A DNA stretch of 60,177 nucleotides, counting the filler, from Hausera hauseri (taxonomy: Eukaryota): assembly GCA_046269625.1 (NCBI GenBank). It is 12 parts of 12 records of this genome, joined end to end, with 100 filler letters (N's around TTAATTAATTAA, not from the genome) between each part and the next. Parts side by side here need not be neighbours in the genome. Positions count along the whole stretch, not along the records: positions 4,582 to 10,359 come from JBJURY010191194.1; 11 more parts are not named here. One strand, written 5' to 3'. Below, in pieces: positions 1 to 46,399 of this stretch (position 1 is the stretch's first letter; the number at the start of each line of letters is the position of its first letter). The translations under genes were made by a program, and so were the position numbers. The notes under the pieces are model-generated. The model was not told where the DNA came from. It was given only the letters and a program-made list of their open reading frames with translations, and searched no databases.

Positions 1-480
1 GACGGCTCTGGATAAATTAGCCGAACTGGCAGATAAAACATATGAAGTTTTGAACCTAGACGCACAGCCCATCATTTCTGCAGCTGCTGGCAACAATAAT
101 TCTGCATTAGAACAACAATTAAATCAATTAAGGCCCGAAAATGCGACATTACAGACACCAGTTAATAATATTAATAACAGATGAAATGAAATTTCATTGA
201 CACAATGAAGTGGCCAATCACCTTCAACTGTACGATCACTGATTTGCTATTATCACGATAAGTTTGATAATAAAGCACGACAGTGCCATTTAGGGTGCAA
301 ATTTTATATCCAGAAATATCGTACAGAAAACATCGTTTGCACATATGATGCAAAATTTAGACATAATGCACGCAGATGCATTGCAGGTTGCACTTTTGAA
401 AACAAACCCTATCATGCAAATGACGTGCGCAACCCTCCCTTCTAACAGTCGCCCTGGTTCTCCTCTTTCAAAAAACTAAC
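1..480 (+). pseudogene. gag: Gypsy gag C-terminal remnant
   Basis: ALDKLAELADK motif shared with the gag at 28766-29251; Cys/His knuckle-like remnant near 325-395. Confidence 0.75.
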
Positions 481-556
481 TTCGCTGCCAGAGCTTTTAG
501 CAAGCACTGGCGAAGGCCACTCTTCACTTTTTAATAGCCGAAAAATTTCTTTCGCT

Positions 557-3500
557 GTGTTCACGTTAAAAGCTTCTACCATCGCACCGACGCCTCAACA
601 TATAAACTTCCTTGTCAACACAGGCGCAGTGATATCGCTCCTACCGCTCACCTTTCCCATTCAAAACGTTACATCTAAAGTAAAATCTCTTTTTACAACT
701 TCCGGACAACCGTTGCATGTTTCCGGAACTTCTACACTTTACTTCACCTTACCAAACTTCTCTGAATTTCGTTGGACATTTACAGTCGCAAATGTCCAGA
801 CGGCCATTTTTGGGTCCGATTTTCTGTCGCACTACAATCTTCTGGTGGATTGTAAACAACGTTGTTTGAAAAGTACCTTCAGTAAAATTCAAACCAAACT
901 GATGAATAGCGTCTCAACCGCAGCACGGATGAGTATCGCACGGAAGTCGGTTTTGAAAGTACCAGCTAATAAACCAGTTATTTCCCATAATTATGATATA
1001 TTTCGTAAATTAATAAAATACGATATCGACAACGAAGCAAGATTAAACATGGACAAGCGTGATTTCGTCACCATAGCATAAACATAGGACAGAATCACTA
1101 CCTCAGATACATTTTCCAATACATTCAGTCTACCTCAAAACTTTCCAGATGTTGAGCCATTGAGTAACTTTCAAATTTCAATTATTAATGACAACGTCAT
1201 TTGACTCCCGCCTGGTCTTTCACAATTGCCGAAAAATCTGCAACAGTACCTTAATACGTCATGTAGTCGCGTACTTAAAAAGGATAGATCTTTCACACCA
1301 AAAATGGCAGTTTACACCACATTATTACACAACACCAAAGACCCATTCGTCAAAAGGTACGACCATTATCATCCAGACAGACAGGCAGTTGAAGCTGAAT
1401 TCGCAGACTTTGAACGCTCCGGGATTGTACGCCGTTCGAAATCGCCTTGGTCTTTTTCTTTACATGTCGTGCAAAAAAGGCCGGATCGTGGCGACAATGT
1501 GGTGATTATCGGCAGCTAACCTCTTTGACTATAATGGACGCTTATCCCTTACCATTGATAAAAGACATATTATATCGTCTCAATTCCACCACTGTCAATT
1601 CCATTATTGACTTGGCCAAGGATTATCACCAAATCCCGGTGGCACCCAAAGATGTCGAAAAAAGAGCCATTACTACACCTGTCGACGTTTACAAATATTT
1701 ATATATGCCTTTTGGCCTACGGAATGCCGCACAAACTTTCCAGCGTCACATGGATGCAATTCTTTCTGATCTCCTTTATGCTCATCCTTACGTTGATGAT
1801 ATTCTAGTTGTTTCTTCATGCATTAAACATCATGAGAAACATCTACGATCCATCTTTCACCGTTTACATCAATGCAACCTGCAGATAAAGTTTACAAAAT
1901 GTGATTTCTTTAAACGATGCATAAATTTCCTCGGACACGTTATCTCTCCTGAAGGGCATTCTCCTCAGCCTGACCGTGTCGAAGCCCTCAAAAACGTACA
2001 ATTATCGCTTACAACCACTGAAATGAGGAACTTCCTGGGTATATTGCACTTCGTCCACAAGTATGTTCCATATTGCTGGAGTTCTTTTCACGCAAACTAT
2101 TACCTCCTGAAACCAGATACTCCACGTTCGACCGAGAACTCCTAGCGATAGTTCTCGCCTTAAAACATTTTTCACATTTGCTTACTGATCAGCGTTTCAC
2201 CATACAAACTGACCATAAACCCCTAATAAACATCATGGCGATGAAACATCCTTCTATTCAACAGGAACGGTAGATTTCGTACTTGTCGACATTTAATTTC
2301 GAAATCAAACATATCAACGGAGTTAACAACTTGGTCGCTGACTTTTTATTTCGGTCAGTAAGCTCAATTAACTTTAGGCCTATTTTCACTCAAAACCAGC
2401 TTCAGGAAAACCAACCATCACAAGACATCCTTAAATCTTTTACTTCCTGCAATATCATTGACTGCGTGGCTCTCGACACGTCCAGACAAGGAGAGCCTAA
2501 AATAATCTTAGCTCGTGCCTTGCAAAAACCGGCATTCAACAGTATACATTCCCTACATCACTCTGGTGATATAGCCACTTTTTGCTTGCTCCACCGACAG
2601 GTAATTTGGCCGTCTATGCGTTCTCATGTGCAAGTGTGGGTTAAGGAATGTGTGGCCTGCAAGAAATTTAAAACCATCAAACATTTGAAGCCACCAATAT
2701 GTCATTTTTATTGCAAATCGCGTTTCAAGTCCGTACACAGATCTTGTTGGTCCGCTTCTTCCTGACAACGATCATCGGTTCATTTTGACCATGATGGACC
2801 GTTCTTCCCGATGGCCAGAAGCTGTCCCTTTGCGGAGCTCTAACACGGATAAAATAGCCGACGTTTTCATACGCACTTGGATCAGCAGGTTTGGATCCCC
2901 TAGGTTCATTATTACGGACCAAGGTACTTAGTTTGAGTCCAAATTGTTTAAATCACTCGTTAACTGATTAGGAATCAGCCATATACACACAACACCATAT
3001 CATCCCCAATCGAATGGCCTTTTAGAGAGATTCCACAGAACACTGAAAACGTCACTGAGAATACTCGCTGAACCCAATAGCAGTTGGACTGCTTTTCTTC
3101 CGTTAGTTCTACTGGGTTGGCGAAACACTCCTTCCACTTCTACAGGTAGTTCACCTACGGAAACCCTATTCGGAGCACCTGTCCGTTCATTATTTGAGCT
3201 AACTGTCTTGGAAGATACACCTACAGACGAAGCTATCCAAACGGACAGGACTACTTTGTCGCAGTCAGTAAAAATTCATTCTGCAGAATACTACATAACA
3301 ATAAAACATACCTACCGAGGATTTATATTCTGCAGTTTGTCTGGGTGAGAAACCAGACGCCGTACGGTTTTCAACCGCGTTATTTGGGGCCCTACAAACT
3401 TGTTCAATTGCACTCTCACAATGCCATTATTTTTAAAGACGGTAAGGAATTAGCGGTGCATATCAACAACGTCAAGCCTGCCTTTTTCGTAGATGAAACC

Positions 3501-3600
3501 CCCCAATATGAATCTTCTACCCCCTTTCTAACTCCTTCACCTATCCCTTTTTTGGTCTCTACGCCCCTGTACCTTTTCCCATTCTGATCCATACTTCTAC
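557..3600 (+). pseudogene. pol: Gypsy pol (PR-RT-RNase H-integrase), fragmented, with an internal deletion near 2075 between RT and RNase H
   Basis: ORF fragments 557-1081, 1447-2145, 2073-2273, 2283-2765 and 3345-3587 carry the standard motifs; the connection region present in the copy at 26700-26900 is missing. Confidence 0.93.
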
Positions 3601-3940
3601 TCCCTTCCCTGAACCTGCTGCAAACTCCCCTTCTACAAACCCAACATCCTTTACTTTCTTTTCTCCTGCATCTCCTTCTCCAAATCCTTATTCGTCCTTG
3701 ACCGACACAGCACCTTACACGACATAATTCGACATTGTTTTACCTCAATCATCTTAGCAATCAGATACAAAGACATCGAAAAATCGCAAATCAGTCACAT
3801 TTAGTACCTACAGTAGGGAATTAAACACTGAAGGGATACAGCGTCTTATACATACGAAGACCACTTAGGTAGTCCACACTGTTCCGTTTTTGCGTTTGCT
3901 TTCTTACTTCATTCTATTTTTATAGTTTACACTTTGCCAC

Positions 3941-4481
3941 GGGGGGTGATGTTGTGCCCAACAAGAGCTGTGCTCTTTGGTCTCCTTTTCCTTTTAGAAA
4001 TATATAGAAATAGTATAAACAACAATAAATGGAAATGTAATAATATATAAATAATATTTAATTGCCGACGATTTTATGTGCTGTTGTCTTTTTTGTCCCA
4101 TCGTGTTAGAAGATAAGTAAATGTAGTTATAAGGTTTGTAATTATGAAATAAAGAATATTAATTTAAAGTTCAATAAATATTTGTAGTAATTAGTGGCTT
4201 TAGTTTGTTGTTTCATTTTGGATATTTTTGATCAAAATTTGGTATGCGACTCAGTGTACAACAGAAACTGCAGTGGGCTCGCCGTTTAGTCGGACATATA
4301 AAATCGATGTAGCCTTAATTTCCTTGGATAACAAAATTGACGCTGTCACATTCAAACATATTTTGCAATGATCGTCTAAATCAGGCGTCAGAAAATTACG
4401 ACCTGCGACTTGGTTTTTCTGGTCCGCACTAAGTTTCAAGTGTACTATTATAATTTGGACCGCAAGCCTTATTTTGCATTT
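3941..4481 (+). repeat. Polypurine tract (3941-3949) followed by 3' LTR starting TGTTGTG at 3950; truncated by contig end
   Basis: TTGCCACGGGGGG..GA|TG matches the PPT/LTR junction of the related copy at 50186-50203. Confidence 0.8.
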
Positions 4482-4581
4482 NNNNNNNNNNNNNNNNNNN
4501 NNNNNNNNNNNNNNNNNNNNNNNNNTTAATTAATTAANNNNNNNNNNNNNNNNNNNNNNNNNNNNNNNNNNNNNNNNNNNN
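4482..4581. other. Artificial contig-joining linker N44-TTAATTAATTAA-N44; identical copies at 10360-10459, 16313-16412, 21083-21182, 25480-25579, 30610-30709, 35385-35484, 40729-40828, 45720-45819, 49831-49930, 54681-54780
   Basis: Identical 100-nt spacer 11 times, with a core that puts stops in all six frames; the sequence on either side is unrelated. Confidence 0.98.
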
Positions 4582-4583
4582 AA

Positions 4584-4859
4584 GAATATCAAGAACAGTT
4601 TAAAAAGCAACATGACAAAAAGGCAAAACCGTAGGATTTAGAACTAGGAAACTGGGTTCATGTACACTATCCAGTAGCCAGGAAAGGCACCTCACTGAAA
4701 TTGACACGTACAGGCAGAGGACCGTACGAAGTTACCAGAGTTACGCCAACCACAGTATACATCAACAAAAATGGAAAGGAAGAAGTCGTGTCGGTACAGA
4801 GAGTTGTTAAGACAGAGATACGGCCAATAAACGTTATTATTTACGCCAACGCGAGATGA
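4584..4859 (+). pseudogene. Gypsy integrase C-terminal GPY/F domain
   Basis: KKQHDKKAKP*..GNWVHVHYP..KLTRTGRGPYEV..VSVQRV; one in-frame stop. Confidence 0.85.
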
Positions 4860-7800
4860 AAACTTCCTCAATAACTGCTAGACCAATATCATACGTTCAG
4901 ATAGTTTTAGCATTATTGTTGATCGCTTCTTATATTAGGAGGGTACAGACTCAATGGCGGCACGACGAATCTACGCTAGGAGATATATATGGAATTCGGA
5001 AGAGTGGATCAAGATCGGAACCTATTAAAACGAAAAAGAAACCAACAGCCAAAGATATTCAAAGACAATAAGATACTAAATTGTTGCAATCAATGACAAT
5101 TCATTATTACTCGCCAAACGCCGTATGTGTTGGATTAAATGCTTGTAGACCACACAACGATTTCGGAATATTTCAAATTGTCTTAGATGATGTAACAACA
5201 AAAGAAGCAAAGAATTGTGATTTTAAACCTGGTGAATATACGCAATGTTGCGACATAGATTTTTGGATGCACTTATAATCTCACTTACCGTTTATATCTA
5301 CCGGACTCATCTGAAGCTTCTATTGAATCCAAACCACAATTCCAATTAGTTATCCCTGCATGGAACAGACATCATGGGATAAAACCTACCGATATGCTAC
5401 GATCCACTGACCATGATATAAAACTATTATACGAAAATATCCAGAGAATCTCTGTAAACAAGCAAAAACAATGAATCCAAGTAGACGCCCGGACAGAGCT
5501 AACTGTCAGCCGAGAAATTAGTATCACATTCCAAGCGGTAATCGGACCAACCCCGAAAATAGGATATTGTTTTATTCGCTCAGGTGTACAATACCCCTGT
5601 TGCAAACTGCATGTGAACCAGGAGTTTAAAATAAAATTTGACTTATACGAGGTACGACCTAATAAACCAAGTATACAATTACGAACCTATTATCCAGAAA
5701 ATAGAATATGGAAGATTTTAATGAGAACTATGACCAGAGAGTCAACTACTAAGGCTAGTTCTACTAACCGAACTGTTGCAGCAAGTAACATACCTAAAGC
5801 AGAATTGGAAAGCGTACCTATTAGATATTCGGTGCACCAATTTAAAATCGTGTTTTAGTAGAAAGGAAGCAAAACTACGATATACACATAAGTTGTCGAA
5901 CAATACATAATAATCCATTTGTAACCTTATTCAAAAATAATCATCAAACAGAATGCAACATGCTAATACCACAATCCGAATATAAAGTACAAGTATATGC
6001 AGAGAATGAGCAAAACCAAACAGTTACATTACGTACCTTAGACGAAATTCGTATAGAACCCCACTTATGAAAATAGAGATGATGAAACTACGTCTCTAGT
6101 TACTACTCAAACACCATTATGATTAACCACCTTACCTATCGTATCCATTGTAGTACTGTCAACGTTTGTTCTCATTTGTTTCATCGCGATTTTTTGATTA
6201 GTTGCCAAAAATCATTATTATAAGCGTTCTAGAAATTTAGAATGGAAATTAAGGGAATTGGGAAACCCTATAGACCCGTATGATAAAATAACCTGACAAT
6301 TACAGATTAGATTATTCTGTCACCAAACAAAGGATTGGTTTTGGGTTAAAACCACACTTTGTTTTATGATTAACCTTTATGCTTTTTTCAGATTGGTAAG
6401 TAATCAGATCGAAATAAACACGAGCCGACTTAGTATCGACGGATTTTTGCAACGATATGTGTCCGTCCGGATCCCAAATTCCAAATCTATTTACAGGCAG
6501 ATCAACACGGAACTACAAGGGAAAACCTTCATTCAATATGAGAAAGTCAATAACATTCCTGATAGCCTTAAACGGACCACGGAAGAAGCCAGGACAACTT
6601 AATTATATGTATGGTGAGAAGATAGAGATGCGAAGGCATATAATCTACAGCAGATAGCCCATTACGAGATTGACAAAGAACAAAAAATATTCGTATACAT
6701 GGCCGACGGAGAAATTTATTATCGGTTGAAGGACCAAAAATAGGATTCGTTTCAAGGGCGACAAAGTAGATATAGCACCTTTGCATTTAATAGCAAGGAT
6801 TTCCGCGGCCACAACTATGAGTTGGAATTTCGCATAGCTGCATTACCAGTGAAACTAATGGTTGAAATAACCGAATAGGAAACAACAAAGACTTCATTGC
6901 CGCCCTTAGAATTCAGACAAAGGCCCACTGAAGAAGAACAAGACGCACACCTACACTCATTTAGACTAGTAACAGATGACAGGAATATCAAAATTGTCGC
7001 GAGAAATTATGGGGAAGGAGACGAAGGAAATTATATTCCAATTGAAATATCTACAAGATAGGTAAACGGGGCCGAGGTCTATTCGAAAATCATTAATCCA
7101 AGAAAGAAAGTTCAGGAAACCTATGCAGAAGTAACCGGACTAAAAAGGGAACAGTTAATCCATGGAAAAGATTCAAGATTAGTGCAAGAAGAAGCAGAAC
7201 ACTGTCTATACGGTTACGTCATAATGTGGTATTAAGTAGAGAGAATGATAGAGAAATTAAAGATACCAGTAACACACATAGCCGGGATAAGAGAGATAGA
7301 GCCCCACCCAACTGTGATGGAACAAATGGAAATCAAAGTCAAGGAGAAAAAAGGTCATCTACCGCCGACCGTGGATGGCCGATTTAAATCAATGATAAAA
7401 GCAATGAGTGGAGGACACATTAAAATAAGCCGACTGTTGACCGCCAGTCAACGATCCCAGTATCTAAGAGACATAAGTGCTGGATTAAAGTGGGAACATG
7501 AATGGATTCCCAGTAATCCCGGGAAGAACCTACGGAGTTTTCCAAAACTTGAAGGAATCAGTACACGATATAGAAAACATTTCCGTCAATACTCTCCGCC
7601 GAGGAATGTTGAGATTACGCCGAAGTGGAATTATCATATAACTATCCCAGGATTAAAATCCAAAAGAACGGAAGATAAACTTCAAACAGACGAGAAGCCT
7701 GGTACTAGTTTTGCAACCAAGCCGGTTGAAAACCGTAACGAGTTCAAGATACCAGAAATTACGAAAAAGCGCATTAAAAAGGAAAAAACCAAAGGAGATG

Positions 7801-7934
7801 AAATCGAGAAAACGATAAAAAAACTTCCGACTTCTATAATCTATTCAGGAAAAAGAGTAAAGAAAGAGAGAGGGACCAAGAACAAGATTGTGAATACAAA
7901 AGTAAGAAGCCAACCTGCAAAGCGGAAGGACTAA
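4856..7934 (+). pseudogene. Decayed accessory ORF in the env position: signal-like peptide, Cys/FN3-like ectodomain, TM (~6125-6205), DEDDh-exonuclease-like fold (~6985-7480), Lys-rich tail
   Basis: Hydrophobic N-terminus IVLALLLIA; C-x9/10-CC motifs; LIPQSEYKVQVYAEN (FN3-like end); TM; VNGAEVYSKIINPRKKV..YAEVTGLK matches the 919-aa ORF at 13523-16282. Confidence 0.7.
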
Positions 7935-8519
7935 GTAATCAAGAGGAGCACACAACTAATCAACGAAGAACAAAGCAAACTAAAGAAACACCGGATAAAA
8001 CCAAGTAGCGAATAACGGAAATAAATATATTGCGGAATAAAAATTCCACGGACAATATACATTACGCCATTACGGAGAACTACCCTAGAATGTTGGTAAC
8101 GACAGAATGCTATAGTCAGCAAAAGATAAAAGAAGCAATGTTTTTTGTCAAGACTACACCCGCAAGACAAGTTTACGAAAATACCTACGTCTGGGAGAAT
8201 CCAAAAATATGACAATATATCAGCCCAATCTTTCAATCTAAAAGAAATGGAAAACTTATAGTTCCGGTGGATAAATCTGTAAAATTGCTACTCAAGGAAC
8301 AAAATCAAAAATACCGATCGACTGCTGAAATTCCCGATTTAGATCGAGATACTATCAGCGATTGGACCTTAGTATCCGTGATCCCAAAAAAAGTTCAATT
8401 AATATGAAACAAAAAAGAATATATGGTTATCTATATCAGGATGAAGATGGTCTAGTGATAGAACCCATTGAAATTATGATAAGAGTCTATTTGGATGATG
8501 AAAACATGGCAAAGGAGGA

Positions 8520-8680
8520 AAAAGAATGTCCAGTATGCGAAGCTAATCTCAAACAATACTGTGATTTTGGACAATCAGGACAGTCGACATAAATACTGTT
8601 AGGATTGCTTGGAAAAATGGACACTAGATAACGGCAAAAGTACATGTCCAGTCTGTAGAGCAGAAGCTACAGACCTGAAA
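8520..8680 (+). pseudogene. RING-HC zinc-finger remnant upstream of the PPT
   Basis: ECPVC ... (frameshift) RHKYC*DCLEKW ... TCPVCR. Confidence 0.75.
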
Positions 8681-8887
8681 TATTTTCCAATGGGAGCTAT
8701 ACCAGAGTAGTCAAAATAAAACCGTACCACAGTTACGAATTGGAAACGAATTCCAGAGAGCAACAAGCGAGTAAAAGCTTCGAACCCAGTTTAAGACAAC
8801 GGATGGACTTATTAAGATTGCCGCGTTCAGGCGTCACCTCTCCTGACGCAAAGGGCACATCCGAGGGTGCCACTCATGTAGGAGAAA

Positions 8888-9626
8888 TGTTGTAGTATAG
8901 ATGAGAGATGTTGTGGTACAACTGAAACGAGCATATAAGCAAATCTAAAGGCATTGTATATTTACTGAATTAGTGTACATAATTAGTTGTATGTACAGAA
9001 TATGATATTATATTTATTGAATAGAAAATTGAATGTATTAAATTAATAGAATTAATCGTAGGCTGTAGCTTATAATAATTAATAATAATGTGTAAAAAAA
9101 CAAAACCGTATTATGAATAACAAAATTGAATGGAGTTTTGAAAAATTTAATTATCGAAGACGAGACTATATAAGCATGGGAAGAGTTGAGTAGTTTGTAG
9201 TGTTGAAAAGTCGATAGACGACGAAATTAGAGAAGACTCAAGTTATTGCTCGAATATTGAACTGTGAAAGCAATTAAAGAGACAAATTGATACTGTGATT
9301 GATAATTCTTTTGGGGTAATTGTTGTTGAATATATTTCTTATTTGTGTCAAATTTTCTCATAGTTTTGCATCGCTTCTTAAAAGCGATTGGACTATCCTA
9401 AGGTTAAAATCTTCACTGTAAAATTATATAGACAAGAGGAGACTTAATCAACCATATTCGTACAGGACCGCAAGCGAGTACCCGCACTACTGAAAAAACT
9501 AATTGTTATAAGGTACATTCTATCTATTCGATAACGGTAGAACTTACCTACACTAAGGTACCTAAAACTTTAAGTGTAATCATTGTTATATAGTGAGAGT
9601 TGAATAGGGCCACCCAATATATAACA
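8888..9626 (+). repeat. 3' LTR (~740 bp)
   Basis: Follows AGGAGAAA purine tract; TGTTGTA...TATAACA imperfect inverted termini; TATATAA near 9167 and AATTAAA near 9272. Confidence 0.7.
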
Positions 9627-10605
9627 TATATATCAATTTTTGGACCGTGGGAAAGTTTTTATATTATCGATAAATTTTTTTCTTTAGTAGCTAAAATTTT
9701 TTGAAGGACCCACCTTGTGCAGAATGTCATTCTGCGTCGAATGGTGTATAAATCAACTCCATATGACGTTTCCCTGTTGTGCTATAGCACAAAATTGTAC
9801 TAATTTTGCATGTTTCTTCATAATATATCTAAAATTTTTTTGAAAGTTGTATCTTAAAGAGTTTAATTCTGCATCGAAATAGTCAGAAAGACGTGCAAAA
9901 TTTAATAATGATTAATAAAAAAATTGCCAAGTAAGTCAAAATAACGCAATTGGAGTTTTAAATGTAACAGCAGTTCGCTCTTGTTCAAGTATCTCCAATT
10001 ACTTTAATATCTTCCATATATGTCATATTTTGGAAACTTCTTACTTCCGCATCGAGAAAACTAACAGAAATAGTTCCATTTAGTCCTATTCAATTTTTAG
10101 CAAAATTTTACACTCTTGTGAGGATTTAGACCAGGCGTGGGAAAACTTTCCCATGAGCAGGTAACATGAAGAATTTATAATCAACGCGCAGGCTATACTA
10201 CAAATTTTAAGTTTCCTCGGATAAAGTAAACACGTCAAATTTTATAATGACATTTTTCCTTCAAGAAAACCAAGAACATTCCGTGTGATACAAATAGAAA
10301 CAGTGCATATTTATTGAAGACTGTTAATGAGAAACTGTTGGTGAATTTCCAACACACGTNNNNNNNNNNNNNNNNNNNNNNNNNNNNNNNNNNNNNNNNN
10401 NNNTTAATTAATTAANNNNNNNNNNNNNNNNNNNNNNNNNNNNNNNNNNNNNNNNNNNNACTTGTTATATTAATAAATATTTTGTGCAGAATTCTTTGTC
10501 TTCTGTTTTGTCTTAGTGTAAATTATTTTGTTGTTTTATTAAGTGACAAATTATTAAGTGTCAATGTTATTAAGTGACAATGGTATTAAGTTTGTAAAAC
10601 AAACG

Positions 10606-10766
10606 TGGGGTGGGAATAATGAAACCAAACCAATCAATATTGGGGGTGGGAATAGTGAAACCACAATCAAACCAATCAATATTGGGGGTGGGAATAGTGA
10701 AACCACGATCAAACCAATCAATATTGGGGGTGGGAATAATGAAACCACGATCAAACCAATCAATAT
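10606..10766. repeat. 42-bp minisatellite, ~3.5-4 copies
   Basis: Unit CCAATCAATATTGGGGGTGGGAATAGTGAAACCACAATCAAA repeated directly with no spacers. Confidence 0.92.
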
Positions 10767-11370
10767 ATTGATTATTGATTATTAATTTGTATATTTCCAT
10801 ATAAAATTCCCATACAATATTGATTATCGATCCTGGGGGGGGGGGTTGGTTTGGTGTGCTCACTTCCCCCTACTCACAATGATTAAAACTGAATAAATTC
10901 CAGCTTGCTGAATAGCTATAGTCAACAAAGAATAAAAATGAAGATAAAATTCCAATATGGAGACACGAAAAATCAAAAATCAAAATTCAATTCAAAAAGG
11001 CCCAGTCACGGGTGTACTTTATTTTGCTAAAACAAACTTCCCATTTTTGTGTTTAAATTGAATAAAAATCCGGAAAAGTCTGAACATGAAATATTGAATC
11101 CGTTAAAATTGCCACACGGACATTGTTCAACAAACCATGACGCACACTAATCGATTACATTATGCGTTGATTGGTTAAGCCTGTCTGTAAAAGCTCATCG
11201 AAATTTCGGCAACTGTTGGAGAATTATAAACATTCATATATCAATAGCACATTCCATGGTGACGTAATGAATGTTTATTAGCCTTGTTTTATGACCATCG
11301 TGGATGCTGCTGATGCTATATGTGCGTGTTGTCTCTAAATAAGTCGCAGTGGGTTGAAGTTCATTCGTGC

Positions 11371-12390
11371 TGTGGTCACATCCTACTGACTACACGTAAA
11401 TTTGTTAAATGAATTTTAATATTCGAAAATGTACAAAGAATTCAAGCAAAACAACAAAAACAAAGAGCAAATTCAAATAAAACAAGTAATATTGTTCACA
11501 GCTTGGTGTCTCCCGTTTTGTGGAATAACTAAAGTTTTTAAATCATGTGCAACTGTTAATTTGATCATTTCGCACAGGAGTATAACGACAATGTAAACCG
11601 GTGCTATAAATGATAGGATATAGCTTGCTGAATATACATTGCGCTGGAGCAGTGGTTCCTGTACTAATTTATAATCAGTAACAGATGAATTTGAGCATAT
11701 AGTTATTTCGAACGAAACCAAATTTGGTGGGTAAATCGGACGATTTTCTATTTTGATATTTTGTAAGTCCTGCATGGAATTCGACTTGAAATGAACAACA
11801 TAAATAGTAGTATGAAAAAATCTGAAATACACGGATAATGACTCAGAGGAATTTAAATAGATTAAAACAATGTCTAAAGAATACTCAGTCGATTGTTTGC
11901 AACCTAAATGACCGTTCAACTGACGAGTGGAGTTTGATTGTGAACGTTAAAATACATTTGAGAAAACGTTTCTGAGTGCAACGAAAGTCTTCTAGAAAAT
12001 CTGCTGTACACTGAAAAACGCAAAATTCGATTTGTAGATGGATGACAAATTCTGTAATGTTTGAAACAGTATGCTGAAAAATTCTGAATATTATATTTTT
12101 TTACGGAATCTCGGTAATCTCTACAGTACTGTTTTGCTTCAAAAATTTTGACACTTCTACGCTATTTTTCTGACGTGACTGTCAAGAAAGGTCTTTTTAA
12201 AGTTTGGAACTGTATCTTTTCATTTTATTCGACTAATTTCTTTGGCACACCAATCTGTGCGTTGACAACCTTTAAAATTGTTTCTCCGAGAGCGAATAAC
12301 GGGCCCAACTATGGGTTCGACGTGGCGGCAACGGAAACCCGGCCGCGCCCAACCAAATGGACCAGGGGCGCCGGTCGCTGGGTGACCACA
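11371..12390 (-). mobile_element. Solo-LTR-like element (~1 kb) with the conserved GC-rich LTR head at its right end
   Basis: Perfect 9-bp inverted termini TGTGGTCAC...GTGACCACA; 12300-12390 is homologous to the LTR head at 50095-50186; no target-site duplication seen. Confidence 0.55.
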
Positions 12391-12477
12391 CAGGGTATTC
12401 ATGGAAATCGCAATAAAAGCAATTTAGCTACAGCAGATTTTCCGTAAAATAGTTGTGGATTATTGCCAACTTTGTGT

Positions 12478-13558
12478 TGTAACGGTGCGAACACTGTTTT
12501 TCTATACCATTTACCTCAGTTTCTCATTTTAAACTTTTATAGTACAAAATCCATTTAAATAGTACGCCTTCAATCAAAGATACTAGAATAGAAAACAAAA
12601 CAACAACTGCTAACCAAAGCCTACGGATTGAGCTGGAACTGCATCTGTTTCATATTAACCCCGCTAACCTTACATTAATATAACGAAAATATCAAATCTG
12701 ACTTTACAACAATTAACAGAAAACAAAAACATGATTAAGCGAAAAGCCGAATGTTCAAAGTACATTCTCAATAAAACTCTTGAACAACAGAACTGTTAAG
12801 TTTATGGGTTATGAAAGAAGCTTGGGTTTCACAACCCTAAGCTTAACTTACTTATTTTAAGAAAAGTCTAGGGTTTCTCCTTCCCACTAGACTTACGGGT
12901 TAATATATTTATTCTTAAAAGCAGCCTGTGGGGTCTGCTTAGATTATTTGCCCTTATGGTGGGTTCGGTCAGGAGGTACACTGGCCGAAGGAAGACCCCT
13001 TAATTACAAAAGTTTATAAGTTACCCGACAATTACAGGTCGGGAGAAAAGAAGGGTTTTTAAGTTAATTTCTTTAGTTAGTCAATATAACTCTTATTTAA
13101 TGTAACTCGAAAGAATAACAAAAACAAAACAATTATGAAAATTTAATGATAGCTAGAAAATCTTAAACAATTATATAAATTAAAAATATCAACATACAAA
13201 TAGTGTAACGAAAATGGGTAATAAATAAGAACTTACATGAATCGTAAAATAACGTCATTAACAACAAGTTTTTATTGAATTGTTCTAAGAAATAAACCAG
13301 TATTTATAGTCCACAAAGAATGTAGGAATTCAATAGAAATTAGAGAAAATTGCAATCACAATAAAATGAATTAGAGTTAAATGTGAGAGAATTAAAATTT
13401 ATAAACAAGTGTCTGGTCTAGATCAGATCACAATAATAAAAATGCTAACACACGTAAAATCAAATGTCGATATTTCGAACAAGGTTACAAATATTATTGT
13501 CTTAAATTTTAAATGTCACTGATTAAATGTCACTGATTTGTTTGACACCTCCCTTTCC
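12478..13558 (-). repeat. PPT (GGAAAGGGAGG, 13548-13558) and 3' LTR starting TGTCAAAC at 13547; far end near 12478 is tentative
   Basis: PPT directly followed by TG; TATAAATA near 13301-13308 and AATAAA near 13271-13276 on the minus strand. Confidence 0.65.
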
Positions 13559-16312
13559 AGATGAAGGCGTCCGCGGCTTCAGAGTTCGAGTTTCGATTGA
13601 TCCATCTGGGTAAAGATAATTGGCGGGGACTAGAATTCCCCATTGGCCTTCACGTTTAACACGTTTTCTTATAGTAATTGTTTGTTTCGCTGAACCTGGT
13701 CGTTTTGTTGGTTTGGTTAGATCAATATAGGTAGTAAGATCCTCAGACTGATCAGAAGTTGTATGGGGTAGGGGAATCGATTCGACAGAGTTGTCTTTAT
13801 TTACTTTTCTCTGAAAAGATGACTGTTCGGATGGAAAGGCGAATGTTTGTTCGGAATTTAAACTCGTAGTCGTTGGGATTAGGCTTTTATCAGCATTTTC
13901 TTGTACACTTAAAGGATTTTCAATTTCCATGGGCAAGGTTGAAACATTCGTTTTTATTTGATTTTGATATTCTTTCGTTAATTTATAAATTTCTAATATA
14001 ACTTTAGCTTTGCTTCTTGATCTTTGGGGATAGATGCCACCATTATACTTGCTAAGCAAACTTTTGGCTGTAGCTTCTTGTTTAGGGTTTATTGTTTTGT
14101 TATATAACAAATCACAAAATCCTAACACTTTCTGATAATCCTGTATAAGGATATTTTCAAATGTTTGGTATAAATCTAGTCCCACAATATGTTTTCCAAC
14201 TAGATGTTTCTTAATGGTTGAGCGTATTAGGATTAAGTCTTCTTTACCAACAATATCCGGTTCCTTTAGGCCGGTAAAATGGCTATTATAATTGTCCACC
14301 CTGTCACGAGGGCAGATTATTTTATCCATTACTTCTTTACCATTAATATCCATGATGGTAATTTCTACTAGAGCCATTTCTTTTCTAATAGGGCTCATTA
14401 GATATACGAAATTCACTGCTAATATTATAACGTCCTCACCAGATATAGTATGTGATCGTATAAACGATGTGCCTTTTTCCATTACGGATACATTCGGAGC
14501 TGTTATCGGATATGTCGGAACTTCTATATCCAATCGGGGTACGAATTCACTTCTCATCGCTTCAATATATATGATTGGACAAGGCCCTCCATAAGTTCTA
14601 AGAAGAAAACTGGCGTTATTAAGGAATCTTTCATCAATTCTTATTGTATTGAGCATTGAAATTTCTATGGAATCTGATATGCCATTGGTGTTTGCCTTGC
14701 TTTTTATTAGAACACTTTCTTTAGTTACCGATATATATAGGGCCATTGTATTGTTCGAGATGGTTATTAGGTCGTTTAGGTTCGTAGATAAACTTTGTAA
14801 TTTTATGATGAGGCCTGTCCGCTGATTGACCGAATGTCCTTTTAAGTTATTAGGGATAAGGGAGGCTTTACCATAGTAAGCATAGTCTCGGTTGTTGGTT
14901 GCCATAAGGTTGGCAGTTATGTTGTAATAAAATGATTTCGGCCGCTGGACTGATTCTGAGCCTTCTTTGACTATAAATAAACATATCAATGGCAGCCAAA
15001 ATAGTTTAGGAATATATATAATTTTGTTTTTAATTTGTTTATTATAGGTTGAGAGGAATTTGGCGGCCTCATTTTGTATATGGGTGCATAGACATAGGGT
15101 AATGTCTTTTAACAATCGGTTATACCGTTTAGGGTCGGTTTGCTTATTAGCTCGCCATTCTTTATCAATATCTTTATACAGTCGGATTGACTGTTCAAAA
15201 TCAGTAGATTTTTCACCCTGTCGTTGAATATCCATAACATTTTTGTTTGAGTCGTTATTCCACTCATCTTGTGAGTTTTCCTGTAATACTTTTAATTGGC
15301 GCAACATCTTTTTAGCTTTAATTCTCCTACTTCTTATTTTCAGACAGACAATTAAGGGTGGTATTAAAATGACCGTTAATATTAAAAAAATACATAAGGT
15401 AACAATTATTACTAAATACGTATACTCCAAATTTTGGAGTTTGAGTAATACAGTAGGTTTTACGCTAATTTTTGTAGTAGTAGTTACTGATTTTAAGGTT
15501 TTCTCTATTTTCTTTCTAATTTGTAAAGTCTGCCCATCTTCATCTAATTCCGTCATAACAACCTCATAGTTTGTATCAGCTTTCAAAGGTATACAAACTG
15601 ATGTTGGTTCTTCCGGAGTTAAAACTCCTTCGCTGATCATTTTATGATTGAGATAACACTCAAATTTTACGTTTGTATTCCTTAAATTTGACACAGTGAT
15701 GATGAGAGAGTATGGCGTGGACTGTACAGTTACGTCTAATTCTCTAATTATGTTCATAACTCTAGTCGATTTCTGAGTCATTATATTCATGGTAGAGGTC
15801 ATTGTTACATTGGTAGAAATCATTATTATTTGTGGGGATTTCACGATTACTTCTGGACCTATTAATCCATCCGACCATTTCCAACCGCCATTCGTTTTCA
15901 ATCCTGTCCAGTACCATATCATATATTCCTTATCAAAGGATATGGGACAACATAGATAAGGATTTTGATAGAAAGGTCTACACTCTATCGTATCGGTTTT
16001 ATTGAATATTGTATATTTAATTGTTCGATATCTATTTATTGGAGAATCTGGTTCAGCTGTTACGCATGGTCCGTTCTTCATGATTTTTGTATGGAATGTT
16101 ACAAGAAAATCTGGTTTACTAAAATAGTATATTACACCCGGAAACGAGTAATACGATGTGTACCATTTCCCGTCTATTATTTTTGTAAGGGCATATTGAA
16201 TTCTATATGACACCCCATATGATAAACCACAACAGATGTGATTAGAACGTCCTGCATACAAGTCACAAGATTCAGTGATCACTTGTCGTGATGTAGATAC
16301 TTTTGATATATA
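13523..16312 (-). CDS. Retrotransposon accessory type-I membrane protein, >919 aa, 5'-truncated: Cys/FN3-like ectodomain repeats, TM (~15340-15420), inactive REX4/ISG20-like DEDDh exonuclease fold (~13980-14440)
   Basis: Uninterrupted ORF open to the contig end that runs through the PPT into the LTR; TM YLVIIVTLCIFLILTVILIPPLIVCL followed by a basic stop-transfer; EITIMDINGKEVMDKIICPRDRVDNYNSHFTGLKEPDI..LVGKHIVG resembles the REX4 core. Confidence 0.8.
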   Translation of the reverse strand, partial: YISKVSTSRQVITESCDLYAGRSNHICCGLSYGVSYRIQYALTKIIDGKWYTSYYSFPGVIYYFSKPDFLVTFHTKIMKNGPCVTAEPDSPINRYRTIKYTIFNKTDTIECRPFYQNPYLCCPISFDKEYMIWYWTGLKTNGGWKWSDGLIGPEVIVKSPQIIMISTNVTMTSTMNIMTQKSTRVMNIIRELDVTVQSTPYSLIITVSNLRNTNVKFECYLNHKMISEGVLTPEEPTSVCIPLKADTNYEVVMTELDEDGQTLQIRKKIEKTLKSVTTTTKISVKPTVLLKLQNLEYTYLVIIVTLCIFLILTVILIPPLIVCLKIRSRRIKAKKMLRQLKVLQENSQDEWNNDSNKNVMDIQRQGEKSTDFEQSIRLYKDIDKEWRANKQTDPKRYNRLLKDITLCLCTHIQNEAAKFLSTYNKQIKNKIIYIPKLFWLPLICLFIVKEGSESVQRPKSFYYNITANLMATNNRDYAYYGKASLIPNNLKGHSVNQRTGLIIKLQSLSTNLNDLITISNNTMALYISVTKESVLIKSKANTNGISDSIEISMLNTIRIDERFLNNASFLLRTYGGPCPIIYIEAMRSEFVPRLDIEVPTYPITAPNVSVMEKGTSFIRSHTISGEDVIILAVNFVYLMSPIRKEMALVEITIMDINGKEVMDKIICPRDRVDNYNSHFTGLKEPDIVGKEDLILIRSTIKKHLVGKHIVGLDLYQTFENILIQDYQKVLGFCDLLYNKTINPKQEATAKSLLSKYNGGIYPQRSRSKAKVILEIYKLTKEYQNQIKTNVSTLPMEIENPLSVQENADKSLIPTTTSLNSEQTFAFPSEQSSFQRKVNKDNSVESIPLPHTTSDQSEDLTTYIDLTKPTKRPGSAKQTITIRKRVKREGQWGILVPANYLYPDGSIETRTLKPRTPSSGKGGVKQISDI

Positions 16313-21182: not shown

Positions 21183-21720
21183 AATAGTTGTGTGGTGTGG
21201 AAATTTATAAAAGGGATTTGTGTTGAGATTGATACCTGAAATTTCGATATCATGTTCTAAGAATTGAGCGATAAATGGATCGAGTAAAAATACATAGGAA
21301 GTTTCTAATATAGTCATCTCCTGATAACTAGGAACATGAAGGAACATATTGGGTTCCCAAATAATAGTATTCGTATCATTAGCTCTCAATATCGCATAAT
21401 AGGTGTACGTCATTATGTAAGTAACGGGACAGCATACTTTGTTATGCATCTCCATGATCGTACAAACGAAGGAGATGTTGTGTTTTGATATAAAGGCGAA
21501 ATCGACAGCGTGGTGTAGCATTACCCGTGTGTGTGTCCGGAGGCAAATACTGAGTTTATGTTTGTCAATTCTGGTGATTGTAGCACGTTCGATTAATTCA
21601 GTGTTGGTCGCAGGTGTTTTGTAGCCATGGGTGTCCGTAATAGGTAATAAGATTGCCATAAAATGAATAGAATGATGCCCAAGTATTTATTCAAGTTGAG
21701 ATAAACTGGGTAACGCTTTG
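21183..21720 (-). CDS. N-terminal part of the accessory Cys-rich ectodomain ORF downstream of integrase (truncated by contig end)
   Basis: Directly downstream of the integrase GPY module; contains VCTIMEMHNKVCCPV, the same C-x9-CC motif as the other two accessory ORFs. Confidence 0.55.
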
Positions 21721-24700
21721 AGGTACCCATGAGGTGAGTTTTAAGCAAAGCTAATATTTTAGGTTCCTCAGTTTAAGATGTTCCCAATTCTGTCACTCGT
21801 ATAAATTCGTTGTATAAAATCGGTGCTCCAGTTACACGTTCAGCGGACGTGGCTTCATGCATACCGGGTCCTTTCTGAATAAAAAGTGTTTGCGGGCGCA
21901 CAGCAACACCTTTGTACGGTCCTTGACCCGTTCGTGTTCATTTTAACGATTTGCCTTTCATTACAGTGAAGTAGTTTATCATTATGTAATCTGCGATCTT
22001 ATAAGTATGCGGTCGATCCTTTTTATTGAATTGCTTTTTATATCCAGCTCTATATTTTTCTTCAAACTCTTTTGCTTCTCGTTGAAAGTACTCGAGGAGT
22101 TCTAGCAGAATGTGTTATTGTTCATCCATGTGATCACTTGTCAGCAAGGATGATAATAGTAACTCAGTGTCTAAGAGTAATAATAGCAATCGTCCGAACA
22201 TTAATTCAAAAGGAGAATGATTAGTACTTTAGATTGGTGTAGTAATGATTGCAAAGGCCGTGGCTTTTAAGTGAGCATCCCAATCCTTTTGATCATGTGC
22301 TACCTTTGTAGAAAGAATACCCTGAACGATGCGGTTCATCCTTTCGACCACACCATTACACTGTGGATGGTAAGATGTTGTTAGGAGATGTTTACATTGA
22401 ATGATATTCGATAATTTTTTGAAAAATTGGCTGATAAAATATGGTGCATGACCTGTAAGTAATTGTTTCGGAGTGCCTAATACTGCTACAACTTCATCGG
22501 AAAAGGCTTCTGCCACAATACTACTAGTCATGTTTCTCAGTGGTACTAGTACAACGTAACGAGAAAAATAATCAACAAGTGACAGTATGTATTTGTACCC
22601 TGAGTCAGAAGCTAGGAATGGTTCATGGATATTCATTGAACACACTTCCATTGGTTTCCTAGCTTCAGGTAAACTTCCCCAAAAGGGTTTTATTCAAAAC
22701 CCTCTGTCTTTTCTTGTAGCATACATTTTTATGAACGTACCCATCCCTCAATATGTTTATATATTTGAGGCCAATAATATTTTGCGGTTATACGCTTTAA
22801 TGTCTTATTCATAGACAGATGATCGGCCAAGTGAGAATCATGCTCCTGTGGCATAACCGCCTTAATTGCCGATGTGGGTACAATAATTAAACCTTGCTCA
22901 CCAACTTTTAGTCTTAAAATACCATTTTCAATTTCTAAATTATCTTTATTTTTGTCATAAAATTTTTGAATGTGGTTTGACACTGGGTCAACTATCTGCC
23001 CGTTAATCAAGTGTTTAACTTGTCTAATAAATGCATCCTGATTTTGTAAAGTCTCGATATTTTGAACTTGGTTTAATCGTTGTTCTTGTAACATATCGTT
23101 AATAATTTTCTCATTCAGTATTTTGTTGTTTCTGTTAACTAATGATTTATGAACCGCGGCTACCCTTCTTGCTTATAATATTCTAGAAAGCGCATCTGCG
23201 TCTACATTCTTTTTACCTGGGCGATATCGATATTCAAGGTAATAATTTAGAAGTTCCAATTTCCATCTTTGCAGTCAACTTAATACGTGTCTGTTGTTGG
23301 AACGTAAAGACTTTATGGCCATAAACATAATACTCATAATGTCGTAGTCAATCTCGAATTGCTAAGAGCTCTAGTTTAGTGGTTCAGTATTTCCGTTCAG
23401 CTTTATTTAAACTTCGTCCTCCATAGGCGACCACGTGCTCTGTTGTTTCATCTTAATTTTGCTGAGCTAATATATAACTAATAGCTTTGCTACTAGCGTC
23501 GGTTTTCAGAATAAATGGTAATGAAAAATCTGGGTATCTCAATATTGATGCTGACACCATTCGTCTATTTATCTCGTCAAAGACATTTTGGTTCTCATCA
23601 GTCCATTCCTATTTTGGTCCTTTCGTAATAACTTGTATTGTGGATGGTTAATTTCAGCAAAGTCACGTATGAAAGTAGCATAAAATCCTCCCAATCCTAA
23701 CCAGGCTTTCATTTCATGCACATTGGTTGCAGAGGTTTGTTCCAATATTTTGGCTACAAAATCGGGGCTGGTTGATATCCATTTACTCGAAACGACAAAT
23801 CCCAGGTATCTAACCTCCTTCTTACACCATTCACATTTTTGGGGTTTAATTTCAATTTAGCAAGTCTGATCCGATCAAATACTTCCTTTAATTCCGCTAA
23901 ATGTGCAGATCATGTCTTGGATGCTATGAGGATGTCGTCAATGTACTATAGCTCCGCACTGCTTTTAGTACTAAACGAATAAATTCTTGGAAGAAAGTAT
24001 GTGTCGTTTTTAAACCATATGGCATGCGTGTGAATTGATAGACTGCTGTATGGATTTTGAACGCAGTTTTCCACCGATCCTCTTTGGCTACAGGGATTTG
24101 CCAAAACCCACTTTACAAATCTAATATGGTCAAATATTTACAATCTTTAATTCATTAATGATGCCTCGTATTCGAGGAATTGGATAAGCGTGATTCACTA
24201 AGTGTTTATTTAAGGTAACGTAATTTACACACATGCACTGTTTAGTCGTATTAGTTTTCTTGACCATAACTATGGGAGAGGGCCATGGTGATTCACTTGG
24301 TTCTATGATACCTTTATCGAACATTGCTTGAATTTGTTCCTCAACTTCCTTTCGGAGGAGGATACCATTTGATATTCGTTGTTGTAATAAATCTACCTCT
24401 TTTCCGGTTGTGGGATCGACCATAAATGATAATCTAAGTTCGAATAAATCTGTTCGTCCGATATCCGTATCGTTTATGGCAAAAATATCAAGGTACTCAC
24501 GAATGAGATCTGAGAAATTCCCTAAAAATTTATTTGATAAAATTTTCTAGGCTTTAGCAAGAACGACATTAAATGTGTCTTCAACATTTTCTTGTTCCGC
24601 AGTTGAGATCATTGTAACTTTGTTGTCGTATTTCTCATGGCGTGTAGTTTCAAGGGATTGTCCAATTTTTGTTTTAGTGAATTTCGTGACACATTTTGGA

Positions 24701-25479
24701 GCGGTATTTAGAACTTCTACCAAAACCGTTCTCGCAATTACCTTAATGCAATAATGTGGTAATATTAATCCATTTCGAAGAGTTTTTGGTATAGACTCAA
24801 TTACACTATTGTCTGTGTATACCGTCCGTGCATGTATAACAAACATGGAATTGGGTGGTATTTTCTCAACATGTCCTACTCAAATATCTGCTTTGTTATA
24901 TTTAAGGGGGATATCTTCGCTGTTTGGACAAACTGATCACGATTGTAAATTTATGTGTACACCTTCTAGTTTTCGTAACACGTTCATACCTAAAATACAT
25001 CTTGGATCTAAGGTAGTCATTACATAGAAAGTTATTTTAATTCTTTGTCCGCAAATCCACGGTTCACATTTCCAATATCCATAAGGCTTGCTGCACTGTT
25101 GGAAGGCAGAAGTCGAACCAGGCGAGTCTTTAGTAGCCAATTTTATCTGAGATTGTAAGTCTTCCGGAATTGCATGTTTTGCTATTAATGCAACGTTAGC
25201 TCCGTTGTCGGCCAAGGCATTCAGGTCAAAACTATCAAAGTGAACTACTGTGTGCGGTCGATTATCCCGCAACAGCTCAAGAAACGTTAATACATCGTTA
25301 TAATTATCTATATGTGGTTCCATCAAGCTGTAACTAGCTGAACTATATCGGGTAGTGCTGCTTGATAATATGACCGTTAAACTTTCCAAAGATTCAGTAT
25401 TGTTTTCCGATCTTTTCACTCCCTCTTTGAGTTCAGCCAGGTCTGGATAGCAACTTACACGTTGCAATGTTGCGTTTTG
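21183..25479 (-). mobile_element. Degenerate Ty3/Gypsy element (PR-RT-RH-IN plus start of accessory ORF); second family, related to the contigs at 4582 and 59410
   Basis: PR LNALADNGAN (~25200), RT SPWPSPIVMVKK and MPYGLK, RH FILKTDASS, IN zinc finger and YHPQCNGVVERMNR, GQGPY. Confidence 0.93.
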
Positions 25480-45935: not shown

Positions 45936-46399
45936 AATACATATATGTTCTTTGGTATAGCTACCAATTTACTGCATTCATATGCACATACTTGTAATTC
46001 TGGAAATGTGTTATTAAATATCTTCTTTCGTCCATCAGCATGATCCTTGACATAGAACGTGGCCTTATGTATATCACATATAGTGTCAATGTTTTGCATG
46101 AGGCAATCTTTTCAAAACTGGGTATTATATTCTTCCCACGTCAGTTTGTGATGATGTTTCGTCAAATAGACATCATTAACATCATTAGAGTCACTTCGCA
46201 TCAAAGTCAAAGAAGACTATCTTCAATGCGCGACATAATCTTGATGCATCTGCTTCGTAGCATGTTTCAGTAGCTGCAGCAGCAGCTGTGAAGCATATTA
46301 GATAAATTAAACGCGCAGCAGCATCAGGCGCAGCGGCTCCACCAAAAAGCCAAGGCAATGGCCAGTTGATGCTGCAGCATTAAAACGAAAAGTTCGCGG

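What the first reader, a model, noticed from the sequence alone, without database searches (positions are those of the whole stretch)
4856..7934. Same accessory architecture in three highly diverged elements
Seen: the C-x(9-10)-CC motif occurs in 13523-16312 (CDLYAGRSNHICC, CRPFYQNPYLCC), here (CDFKPGEYTQCC, CFIRSGVQYPCC) and in 21183-21720 (CTIMEMHNKVCC). This copy and the one at 21183 lie directly downstream of a Gypsy integrase, and this copy also has the TM and non-catalytic exonuclease fold. Inference: an old, vertically maintained module of a distinct Gypsy clade rather than a one-off capture.
Basis: partly seen in the sequence, partly recalled or inferred. Interest (0 to 1): 0.7.

Follow-up and report, generated by a model that had tools for sequence, protein, structure and literature searches.

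The report
Retrotransposon receptor-like gene with dead enzymes
A family of animal LTR retrotransposons carries, where an envelope gene normally sits, a gene for a receptor-like membrane protein joined to two disabled nucleic-acid enzyme folds, a cargo combination that may show a new way such elements handle their host cells.

Summary
The window is 12 unlinked contigs. The finding (4856-7934) is a decayed accessory ORF directly behind a Ty3/Gypsy integrase. It encodes a signal peptide, three FN3-like Cys repeats, a TM helix, an AlkB/2OG-oxygenase fold without the metal triad, an ISG20/REXO4-type exonuclease without DEDDh, and a basic tail. A broken RING gene and a PPT|LTR junction follow.

It is clearly homologous to the intact 929-codon ORF at 13523-16312 (a profile built without window sequences scores E 6e-28 and 3e-44). 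That contig holds no pol. The third copy is cut after one repeat, so only a weak repeat match and the integrase (39%, E 6e-15) link it.

Twenty-five database relatives share the exonuclease, most also the AlkB fold; 13 of 16 tested keep DEDDh. Six of 11 metagenome loci share the same PPT|LTR motif. In one locus an FN3-TM gene and an active AlkB-exonuclease gene are separate, so the window form looks like a fusion with inactivation.

A distinct lineage is supported; vertical descent is untested. Most likely role: a non-fusogenic, membrane-anchored RNA-binding adaptor or decoy. Seven literature searches found no such combination.

The parts
4584..4859 (+). C-terminal end of a Gypsy integrase (GPY-type motif); stop TGA 4857-4859 overlaps the next ATG (ATGA)
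   Evidence: 39% over 80 aa to the integrase end at 22057-21818, E 6e-15; overlap seen in sequence
4856..7934 (+). Decayed accessory ORF, about 1020 codons; 13 premature stops and 3 frame changes (near 5270, 5865, 6060)
   Evidence: the frame changes are my reading of the three frames
4856..4950 (+). Signal-peptide-like N-terminus
   Evidence: hydropathy 1.82 over aa 6-24; no signal-peptide predictor available
5093..5370 (+). FN3-like Cys repeat 1 (motif 5216-5251); limits approximate
   Evidence: leave-element-out profile: 4 of 500 Cys-fixed shuffles as high
5475..5700 (+). FN3-like Cys repeat 2 (motif 5568-5603); limits approximate
   Evidence: 46 of 500 shuffles as high, weak
5800..6060 (+). 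FN3-like repeat 3 (C...C-x-L-x-P-x-x-x-Y corner)
   Evidence: Pfam fn3 E 0.0052, below cut-off; 0 of 500 shuffles against a profile from the other elements
6147..6203 (+). Transmembrane helix followed by basic residues
   Evidence: hydropathy 3.02
6345..6401 (+). Second, weaker hydrophobic stretch before the AlkB-fold domain
   Evidence: hydropathy 1.24; counterpart 1.94 in the intact ORF and 1.83 in P0002
6480..6902 (+). AlkB/2OG-Fe(II) oxygenase-fold (DSBH) domain without HxD..H
   Evidence: family profile E 3e-8; fold from the homologous domain of the intact ORF, Z 11.2 to ALKBH6; residues
6981..7334 (+). ISG20/ISG20L2/REXO4-type DEDDh exonuclease domain, catalytic residues lost
   Evidence: family profile E 1.5e-18; family vs ISG20L2 E 1e-24; residues
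7500..7934 (+). Basic, probably disordered tail (39 K+R of 144 aa) and stop
8015..8707 (+). Second broken accessory gene ending in a C3HC4 RING finger (first CxxC at 8527 in another frame); 8015-8401 has no family
   Evidence: Pfam zf-C3HC4 25.5 bits, cut-off 21, on 8573-8707
8881..8890 (+). Polypurine tract | LTR start, GGAGAAA|TGT; putative 3' LTR from 8888 (AT-rich)
   Evidence: only exact match in the window; same junction in 6 of 11 related loci; 15 of 5000 shuffles
13523..16312 (-). Intact homologous ORF (929 codons, 5' end cut by the contig): FN3-like repeats, TM 15418-15362, AlkB fold 14947-14579, pseudo-exonuclease 14437-13982
   Evidence: multicopy with third-position bias in public runs
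21183..21730 (-). Start of a third accessory ORF: signal-like stretch, frame change, one Cys repeat (21464-21429), then contig end
   Evidence: 6 of 500 shuffles as high, 53 of 500 with Cys masked
21770..25479 (-). Decayed Ty3/Gypsy pol, order protease-RT-RNase H-integrase
   Evidence: RVP and rve, Integrase_H2C2, best PDB match Ty3 RT E 1e-13; RNase H read from sequence

Best explanation
It is the 3' accessory cassette of a distinct Ty3/Gypsy LTR lineage in an animal genome.

Shown: the position behind the integrase; the two enzyme folds and the loss of their catalytic residues; homology of two full copies; a wider family whose members end in the same PPT|LTR junction.

Inferred: the ORF makes a type I membrane protein with three disulfide-bonded FN3-like domains outside, and an AlkB-fold plus ISG20-fold pseudo-enzyme pair and basic tail inside. 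It arose by fusing an FN3-TM gene to an originally active AlkB-fold/DEDDh nuclease gene, with loss of catalysis.

Most likely working mode: a non-fusogenic adaptor. The dead nuclease and AlkB folds bind RNA (as Maelstrom/EXD1 do) and hold or shield the element's RNA/RNP at a membrane, while the FN3 domains act as an adhesion or attachment surface. The ATGA overlap suggests translation could be coupled to the end of pol. This copy is a dead remnant.

Odds: identity and anatomy about 0.8; this mechanism about 0.35.
For: 1. A profile from 16 relatives, with no window sequence, hits only this ORF (E 6e-28) and the intact ORF (2.6e-44) among 72 reading frames.
2. The AF2 model of the N domain has pLDDT 78; best matches are AlkB/2OG oxygenases, Z 11.2, rmsd 3.1, 133 aligned, with the same result.
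3. The exonuclease is nearest ISG20L2/ISG20. DEDDh is intact in 13 of 18 family rows and lost in 5, all with Asp1->Ala.
4. ESM Atlas: the 10 best named hits for the ectodomain share the fn3 family or clan, top score 0.90.
5. L001 has signal-FN3-like x3-TM, two coiled-coil ORFs, then the active gene.
6. Shared junction motif.
7. The intact ORF is repeated in run X1, and listed variants favour third positions: 15 of 23, P 0.002; 12 synonymous, P 0.015.
8. PMC5408684 notes that inactive DEDD derivatives keep RNA binding.
Against: 1. There is no functional data, and no listed run is on record as RNA.
2. FN3 is not proven: Pfam is below cut-off, the single-sequence fold failed (pLDDT 35), and PDB sequence searches gave no FN3.
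3. A second hydrophobic stretch could flip or release the enzyme folds.
4. A stop at 6294 lies between TM and AlkB fold, so this copy alone could be two genes (same frame, though).
5. The intact ORF has no pol or junction motif on its contig.
6. No RT or integrase in 11 related loci; only L010 has a retroviral-type protease. The loci come from two assemblies and include near-duplicates.
7. The pseudo-enzyme clade is weak: 40/90 for five rows, 89/90 for three, with long branches.
8. The variant test used 40 of 661 rows chosen by the tool.
Confidence: 0.6

Rival explanations
1. Counter-defence kit, like large DNA viruses. The FN3 ectodomain is a decoy receptor, the dead ISG20-like and AlkB-like folds titrate host restriction or silencing factors, and the RING protein marks host factors for degradation.
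For: RING gene in the same cassette. ISG20 is the close structural relative. The vaccinia C16 N-terminal domain is among the fold matches, Z 8.3; that it is an inactive oxygenase used against the host is recalled. Burro elements carry apoptosis and ubiquitin domains (PMC6431247 passages).
Against: No partner is known; RING seen in one copy only and in none of 11 loci; C16 is not the best match.
Confidence: 0.3
2. An unusual envelope or attachment protein that gives the element an extracellular stage.
For: Env position, signal peptide, TM, N-glycosylation sequons; the ectodomain part has the highest summed depth along the ORF in run X1.
Against: No match to any viral fusion family in Pfam; the cytoplasmic part is about 600 aa; FN3 domains are not known fusogens (established knowledge).
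Confidence: 0.12
3. A polyprotein or two genes. The second hydrophobic stretch is a signal or second TM, so the enzyme folds go to the lumen or are released, which would explain the loss of catalysis.
For: Hydrophobic stretch before the AlkB fold in the intact ORF, this copy and P0002, all catalytically dead; none of that kind before the AlkB fold in P0003 or P0006.
Against: Weak in this copy (1.24); absent at the N-termini of the dead P0004 and P0015 as called; basic tails fit cytosol or nucleus.
Confidence: 0.15
4. Passively captured host exons, or for the intact copy a host gene, without a role for the element.
For: All domains have host relatives; this copy is heavily decayed; the intact ORF lacks linked pol.
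Against: Same order in copies about 26% identical; 929 open codons without introns; multicopy with synonymous bias; no cellular protein with this pair among 23 phmmer hits.
Confidence: 0.1

Closest known systems
Bdelloid Juno/Vesta LTR elements with DEDDy ORF3 (Rodriguez et al. 2017, PMC5408684; parts 1-3 of 5 read)
   Same: A DnaQ-like 3'-5' exonuclease gene downstream of pol in Gypsy-like elements; third acidic residue often E (DEED there, DEEH-D in 11 of 13 active relatives here).
   Different: Theirs is RNase D-like DEDDy, catalytically intact, with no TM or coiled coil. Here it is ISG20/REXO4-like DEDDh, always behind an AlkB fold where the protein is long enough to tell, and in the window dead and joined to a membrane protein.
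Phalaenopsis Gypsy elements with an ALKBH5-like ORF (PMC9289625; passages read)
   Same: AlkB-type domain as extra cargo of a Ty3/Gypsy element.
   Different: Theirs is a recent capture described as a functional m6A demethylase. Here the fold has 4-12% identity to solved oxygenases, no Pfam match and no HxD..H triad.
Planarian Burro/GYPSM1 giant Gypsy elements (PMC6431247; passages read)
   Same: Many accessory domains, including RING-related and regulatory ones; domains occur as separate ORFs or fused.
   Different: Burro cargo lies in a huge ORF1 between gag and pol and includes a true env; no FN3 or AlkB-exonuclease in the passages seen.
Errantivirus env (Drosophila gypsy, baculovirus F-derived)
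   Same: Position after pol, signal peptide, Cys-containing ectodomain, TM.
   Different: No sequence match; FN3-like repeats; very long enzyme-fold tail.
ISG20L2/ISG20/REXO4 exonucleases; Maelstrom/EXD1 pseudo-nucleases
   Same: Domain homology (E 1e-24); inactive DEDD folds used for RNA binding (PMC5408684 discussion).
   Different: Host single genes, not membrane-anchored and not paired with an AlkB fold (recalled).

Membership tests
Ty3/Gypsy LTR retrotransposon | pol order PR-RT-RH-IN | tested here: met
   contig 21183-25479; only the integrase end is present for the finding's contig; none for the 13523 contig
Ty3/Gypsy LTR retrotransposon | RT of Ty3/Gypsy type | tested here: met
   best PDB match Ty3 RT, E 1.1e-13, ahead of MMLV 4.8e-11; no tree with reference clades
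Ty3/Gypsy LTR retrotransposon | PPT followed by a TG-starting LTR | tested here: met
   8881-8890, shared with 6 of 11 loci
Ty3/Gypsy LTR retrotransposon | paired LTRs, PBS, target-site duplication | not testable with these tools
   contigs of 4-6 kb; no genome held
Named Gypsy clade (GyDB/Repbase) | RT tree placement | not testable with these tools
   no reference RT set available; distinct from the three other Gypsy copies in the window
Errantivirus/viral env fusogen | homology to a viral fusion protein | tested here: inconclusive
   no Pfam match, but no confident ectodomain model; furin site and fusion peptide not formally tested
DEDDh exonuclease (ISG20/REXO4) | domain homology | tested here: met
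DEDDh exonuclease (ISG20/REXO4) | D-E-D-H-D catalytic set | tested here: not met
   lost in both window copies; present in 13 of 16 relatives
Bdelloid DEDDy ORF3 | DEDDy, RNase D-like, no TM | tested here: not met
   family has His (DEDDh) and the window ORFs have a TM
AlkB/2OG-Fe(II) dioxygenase | DSBH fold | tested here: met
   Z 11.2, rmsd 3.1, 133 aligned; Foldseek E 5e-4
AlkB/2OG-Fe(II) dioxygenase | HxD/E..H triad and C-terminal Arg pair | tested here: not met
   not conserved in 23 rows, judged by sequence position. A different His is kept in 87% of rows but is Tyr in the intact window ORF, P0002 and this copy
Fibronectin type III | profile or structural match | tested here: inconclusive
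   ESM 0.90 with 157 shared features, under the 170 typical of true members; fn3 17.4 bits, cut-off 25
C3HC4 RING | Pfam score above cut-off | tested here: met
   25.5 vs 21; the finger is split over two frames

The most novel reading that the evidence does not exclude
An undescribed virus-like LTR lineage of animals that carries a poxvirus-style host-control kit instead of env: an FN3 decoy or signalling receptor, a new AlkB-fold/ISG20 nuclease family and a RING ligase. One branch fused receptor and dead enzymes into a single-pass protein that links an outside cue to control of the element's RNA.
Probability: 0.22. Interest if true: 0.85.

Novelty: new variant of a known kind. Interest (0 to 1): 0.62.

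Why it matters
Genes in the env position of Gypsy elements are often labelled env on the strength of a signal peptide and a TM. This one is probably not a fusogen. It defines an unnamed protein family (AlkB fold plus ISG20-type nuclease) with both active and dead natural members. It also shows a receptor-like protein being built by fusion inside a mobile element. Having active and dead members side by side makes the open question of what retroelement exonucleases do directly testable.

Tried and rejected
- Word-based homologue search with the intact ORF: nothing. ESM Atlas on the whole protein: no usable hit. L001 membrane ORF: only itself. Single-sequence AF2: pLDDT 35, not used.
- Pairwise frameshift-aware alignment found the Cys regions not significant (z 0.4-1.2) and the exonuclease significant (z 10.7).
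- The motif alone was rejected as evidence (7 of 12 hits elsewhere). The per-ORF P values and the anchored pair z-scores are inflated because the motif was chosen after the fact.
- Six scans of viral contigs and two of genome contigs: no relatives.
- Rows dropped: L012 (27% match among bacterial-type genes, read as a DnaQ-like protein) and P0022 (repeat, spurious). P0013, P0019, P0020 and P0024 were read as cellular REXO4-like and used as outgroup.
- No RNA holder listed. No tRNA genes. Extended junction motif with 3 mismatches: one chance-level hit. No earlier scan findings.
- The RT-versus-accessory tree could not be built: only one copy has both genes.

Full report
Setting. The 60-kb window is 12 contigs of 4-6 kb joined by N44-TTAATTAATTAA-N44 spacers, so neighbours across spacers are unlinked. 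No genome is held. Dynein, ion-channel and TCF25 fragments and several retroelements point to an AT-rich eukaryote, probably an animal (inference). The three ORFs lie on contigs 4582-10359, 10460-16312 and 21183-25479.

Observation. All five motifs are present. C-x9-10-CC occurs 12 times in six frames (mean 2.5 in 30 base shuffles), and 7 of these are outside the three ORFs, so it is a pointer, not proof. The finding is an ORF of about 1020 codons with 13 premature stops and three frame changes. Its ATG at 4856 overlaps the integrase stop (ATGA). The 13523-16312 ORF is open for 929 codons and is cut at its 5' end. The third ORF starts near 21730 behind a decayed PR-RT-RH-IN pol whose best PDB match is Ty3 RT; it is cut after about 180 codons.

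C-terminal half. phmmer of the intact ORF over 1.84 billion representatives gave 23 hits. I read 18 as one family, 4 as cellular REXO4-like proteins and 1 as spurious; a profile search added 7 more. None of those whose clusters were looked up is named (10 of 10). A profile from 16 of these 25, with no window sequence, hits two of 72 reading frames: the intact ORF (E 2.6e-44) and the finding (E 6e-28). Both domains score separately (N domain 1.5e-13 and 3e-8; exonuclease 1.7e-27 and 1.5e-18); the next hit is at 0.04.

The exonuclease. It is nearest ISG20L2 and ISG20 (E 1e-24 and 3e-15). The DEDDh set is intact in 13 of 18 family rows and lost in five (both window copies, P0002, P0004, P0015), each with Ala at the first Asp. 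In the tree these five group weakly (40/90). The two window copies plus P0002 get 89/90, all on long branches.

The domain before it. It has no Pfam match. Folded with 23 rows it reached pLDDT 78 and matched AlkB/2OG-Fe(II) oxygenases: ALKBH6 Z 11.2, rmsd 3.1, 133 aligned; Ofd2 Z 10.9. Foldseek agreed against PDB and viral models. The HxD..H triad and terminal arginines are not conserved, judged by sequence position. A different His is kept in 87% of rows but is Tyr in the intact ORF, in P0002 and in this copy.

N-terminal half. Both complete ORFs have a strong TM (hydropathy 3.0 and 3.2), and the finding has a signal-like start. The Cys motifs precede the pattern of an FN3 tyrosine corner (my reading), and each ORF has a third repeat with two Cys. 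The ESM Atlas returned FN3 clusters, top score 0.90, with 10 of the 10 best named hits in one family or clan; the tool notes a third of shuffled proteins also get 10 of 10. Pfam fn3 hit repeat 3 of the finding at E 0.005, below cut-off. PDB sequence searches found no FN3. With each element left out in turn, repeat profiles beat Cys-fixed shuffles in 500, 500, 496, 494 and 454 of 500 cases and beat all 7 decoy motif sites. With Cys masked, 1 to 53 of 500 shuffles reach the score. Whole-ectodomain hhalign was not significant (E 0.03-0.11 among window copies). Homology of the repeats is likely but modest, and it is all that ties in the third ORF itself.

Lineage. The integrase ends of the finding's contig and the third contig are 39% identical (E 6e-15); other Gypsy copies in the window score E 0.12 or worse. 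After the ORF come a broken gene with a C3HC4 RING and GGAGAAA|TGT at 8881. A metagenome scan gave 12 loci from 107 candidates; 11 are family members from two assemblies, some near-duplicates. Six of the 11 carry the same or a near-identical junction downstream of the gene on the same strand, followed by AT-rich DNA; the other five end within 532 bases of the gene. The exact decamer is unique in the window (13 of 100 whole-window shuffles have one) and arose in 15 of 5000 shuffles of the downstream region. The looser pattern also hit once inside L008 on the other strand and once at window 49265.

Gene order in relatives. L001 has signal-three FN3-like repeats-TM, two coiled-coil ORFs, and then the active AlkB-exonuclease gene as separate ORFs. 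L009/L010 have a different membrane ORF, fused in L010 to a retroviral-type protease. No RT, integrase or RING was found in the 11 loci, or on the intact ORF's contig.

Copies and selection. Four of five listed runs were laid on the intact ORF's contig. In X1 the summed depth is 3200-6700 over the ectodomain, 40-640 over the rest of the ORF and 20-100 over 11048-12223. The tool warns that this is not a copy number, but many variant contigs are counted. Of 40 variant rows shown (661 in all), 23 fall in the ORF: 15 at third positions (P 0.002) and 12 synonymous against 29% expected (P 0.015). This fits a repeated coding sequence under purifying selection.

Mechanism. Shown: anatomy, homology and loss of catalysis. 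Inferred: an active AlkB-fold/DEDDh gene and an FN3-TM gene travelled in one cassette, and in this branch they fused and the nuclease died. A dead nuclease with a basic tail on a membrane anchor is best read as an RNA-binding adaptor that holds or shields the element's RNP at a membrane (about 0.35). A decoy or counter-defence role is close behind (0.3). An env-like role, a cleaved or lumenal form and passive cargo are less likely. The stop at 6294 and the second hydrophobic stretch leave fusion and topology open in this copy.

Comparison with the literature. Exonuclease ORF3s are known in bdelloid elements but are DEDDy, intact and TM-less (PMC5408684, parts 1-3 of 5 read). An active AlkB ORF is known in orchid Gypsy elements (PMC9289625, passages). 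Burro elements carry many host-control domains (PMC6431247, passages). PMC6338049 (part 1 of 4) lists DnaQ-like exonuclease as a known accessory domain. Seven searches listed no paper describing FN3-TM, AlkB-fold plus ISG20-type, or their fusion in an LTR element; I saw only listings for the other papers. Supplements, Repbase, Dfam and most subscription papers were not seen and could hold a prior description.

Verdict. A distinct lineage is supported; vertical descent is untested. New variant of a known kind; interest 0.62.

Noticed in passing
window 54781-58710 (-): A stop-free frame of about 1310 codons mixing ferrochelatase, dynein (DHC_N2, stalk, AAA_9), EF-hand and ion-channel pieces: a gene-fragment chimera or an assembly artefact.
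   Followed up: no
window 38300-40600 and 46360-48600: Two copies about 80% alike on separate contigs; one contains a FHNLSGYDSHF-like motif that I recall from Polinton-type DNA polymerases.
   Followed up: no
window 446-3950, 25580-29400, 50300-53050: Three related Gypsy pol copies (57-73% identical) of another lineage; I recall the type as CsRn1-like.
   Followed up: partly
window 30710-35384: A contig of 61% GC in a 33-41% GC window, with long overlapping ORFs on both strands without Pfam match and 13-bp tandem repeats.
   Followed up: no
window 12300-12360 and 50094-50154: A shared GC-rich 61-bp repeat, with raised depth in run X1; possibly a SINE-like element.
   Followed up: no
window 10600-10850: A 42-bp tandem repeat with very high depth in public runs.
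   Followed up: no
L010 3-1679: Retroviral-type aspartic protease fused in frame to TM-Cys-rich ectodomain-TM, directly followed by the AlkB-exonuclease gene, with no RT between.
   Followed up: partly
L004 2761-2780, L005, L006, L011: A conserved inverted repeat just upstream of the PPT in four loci; no match in viral contigs.
   Followed up: partly
L001 1773-2204 and 2669-3058: Two duplicated coiled-coil ORFs between the membrane gene and the nuclease gene.
   Followed up: no
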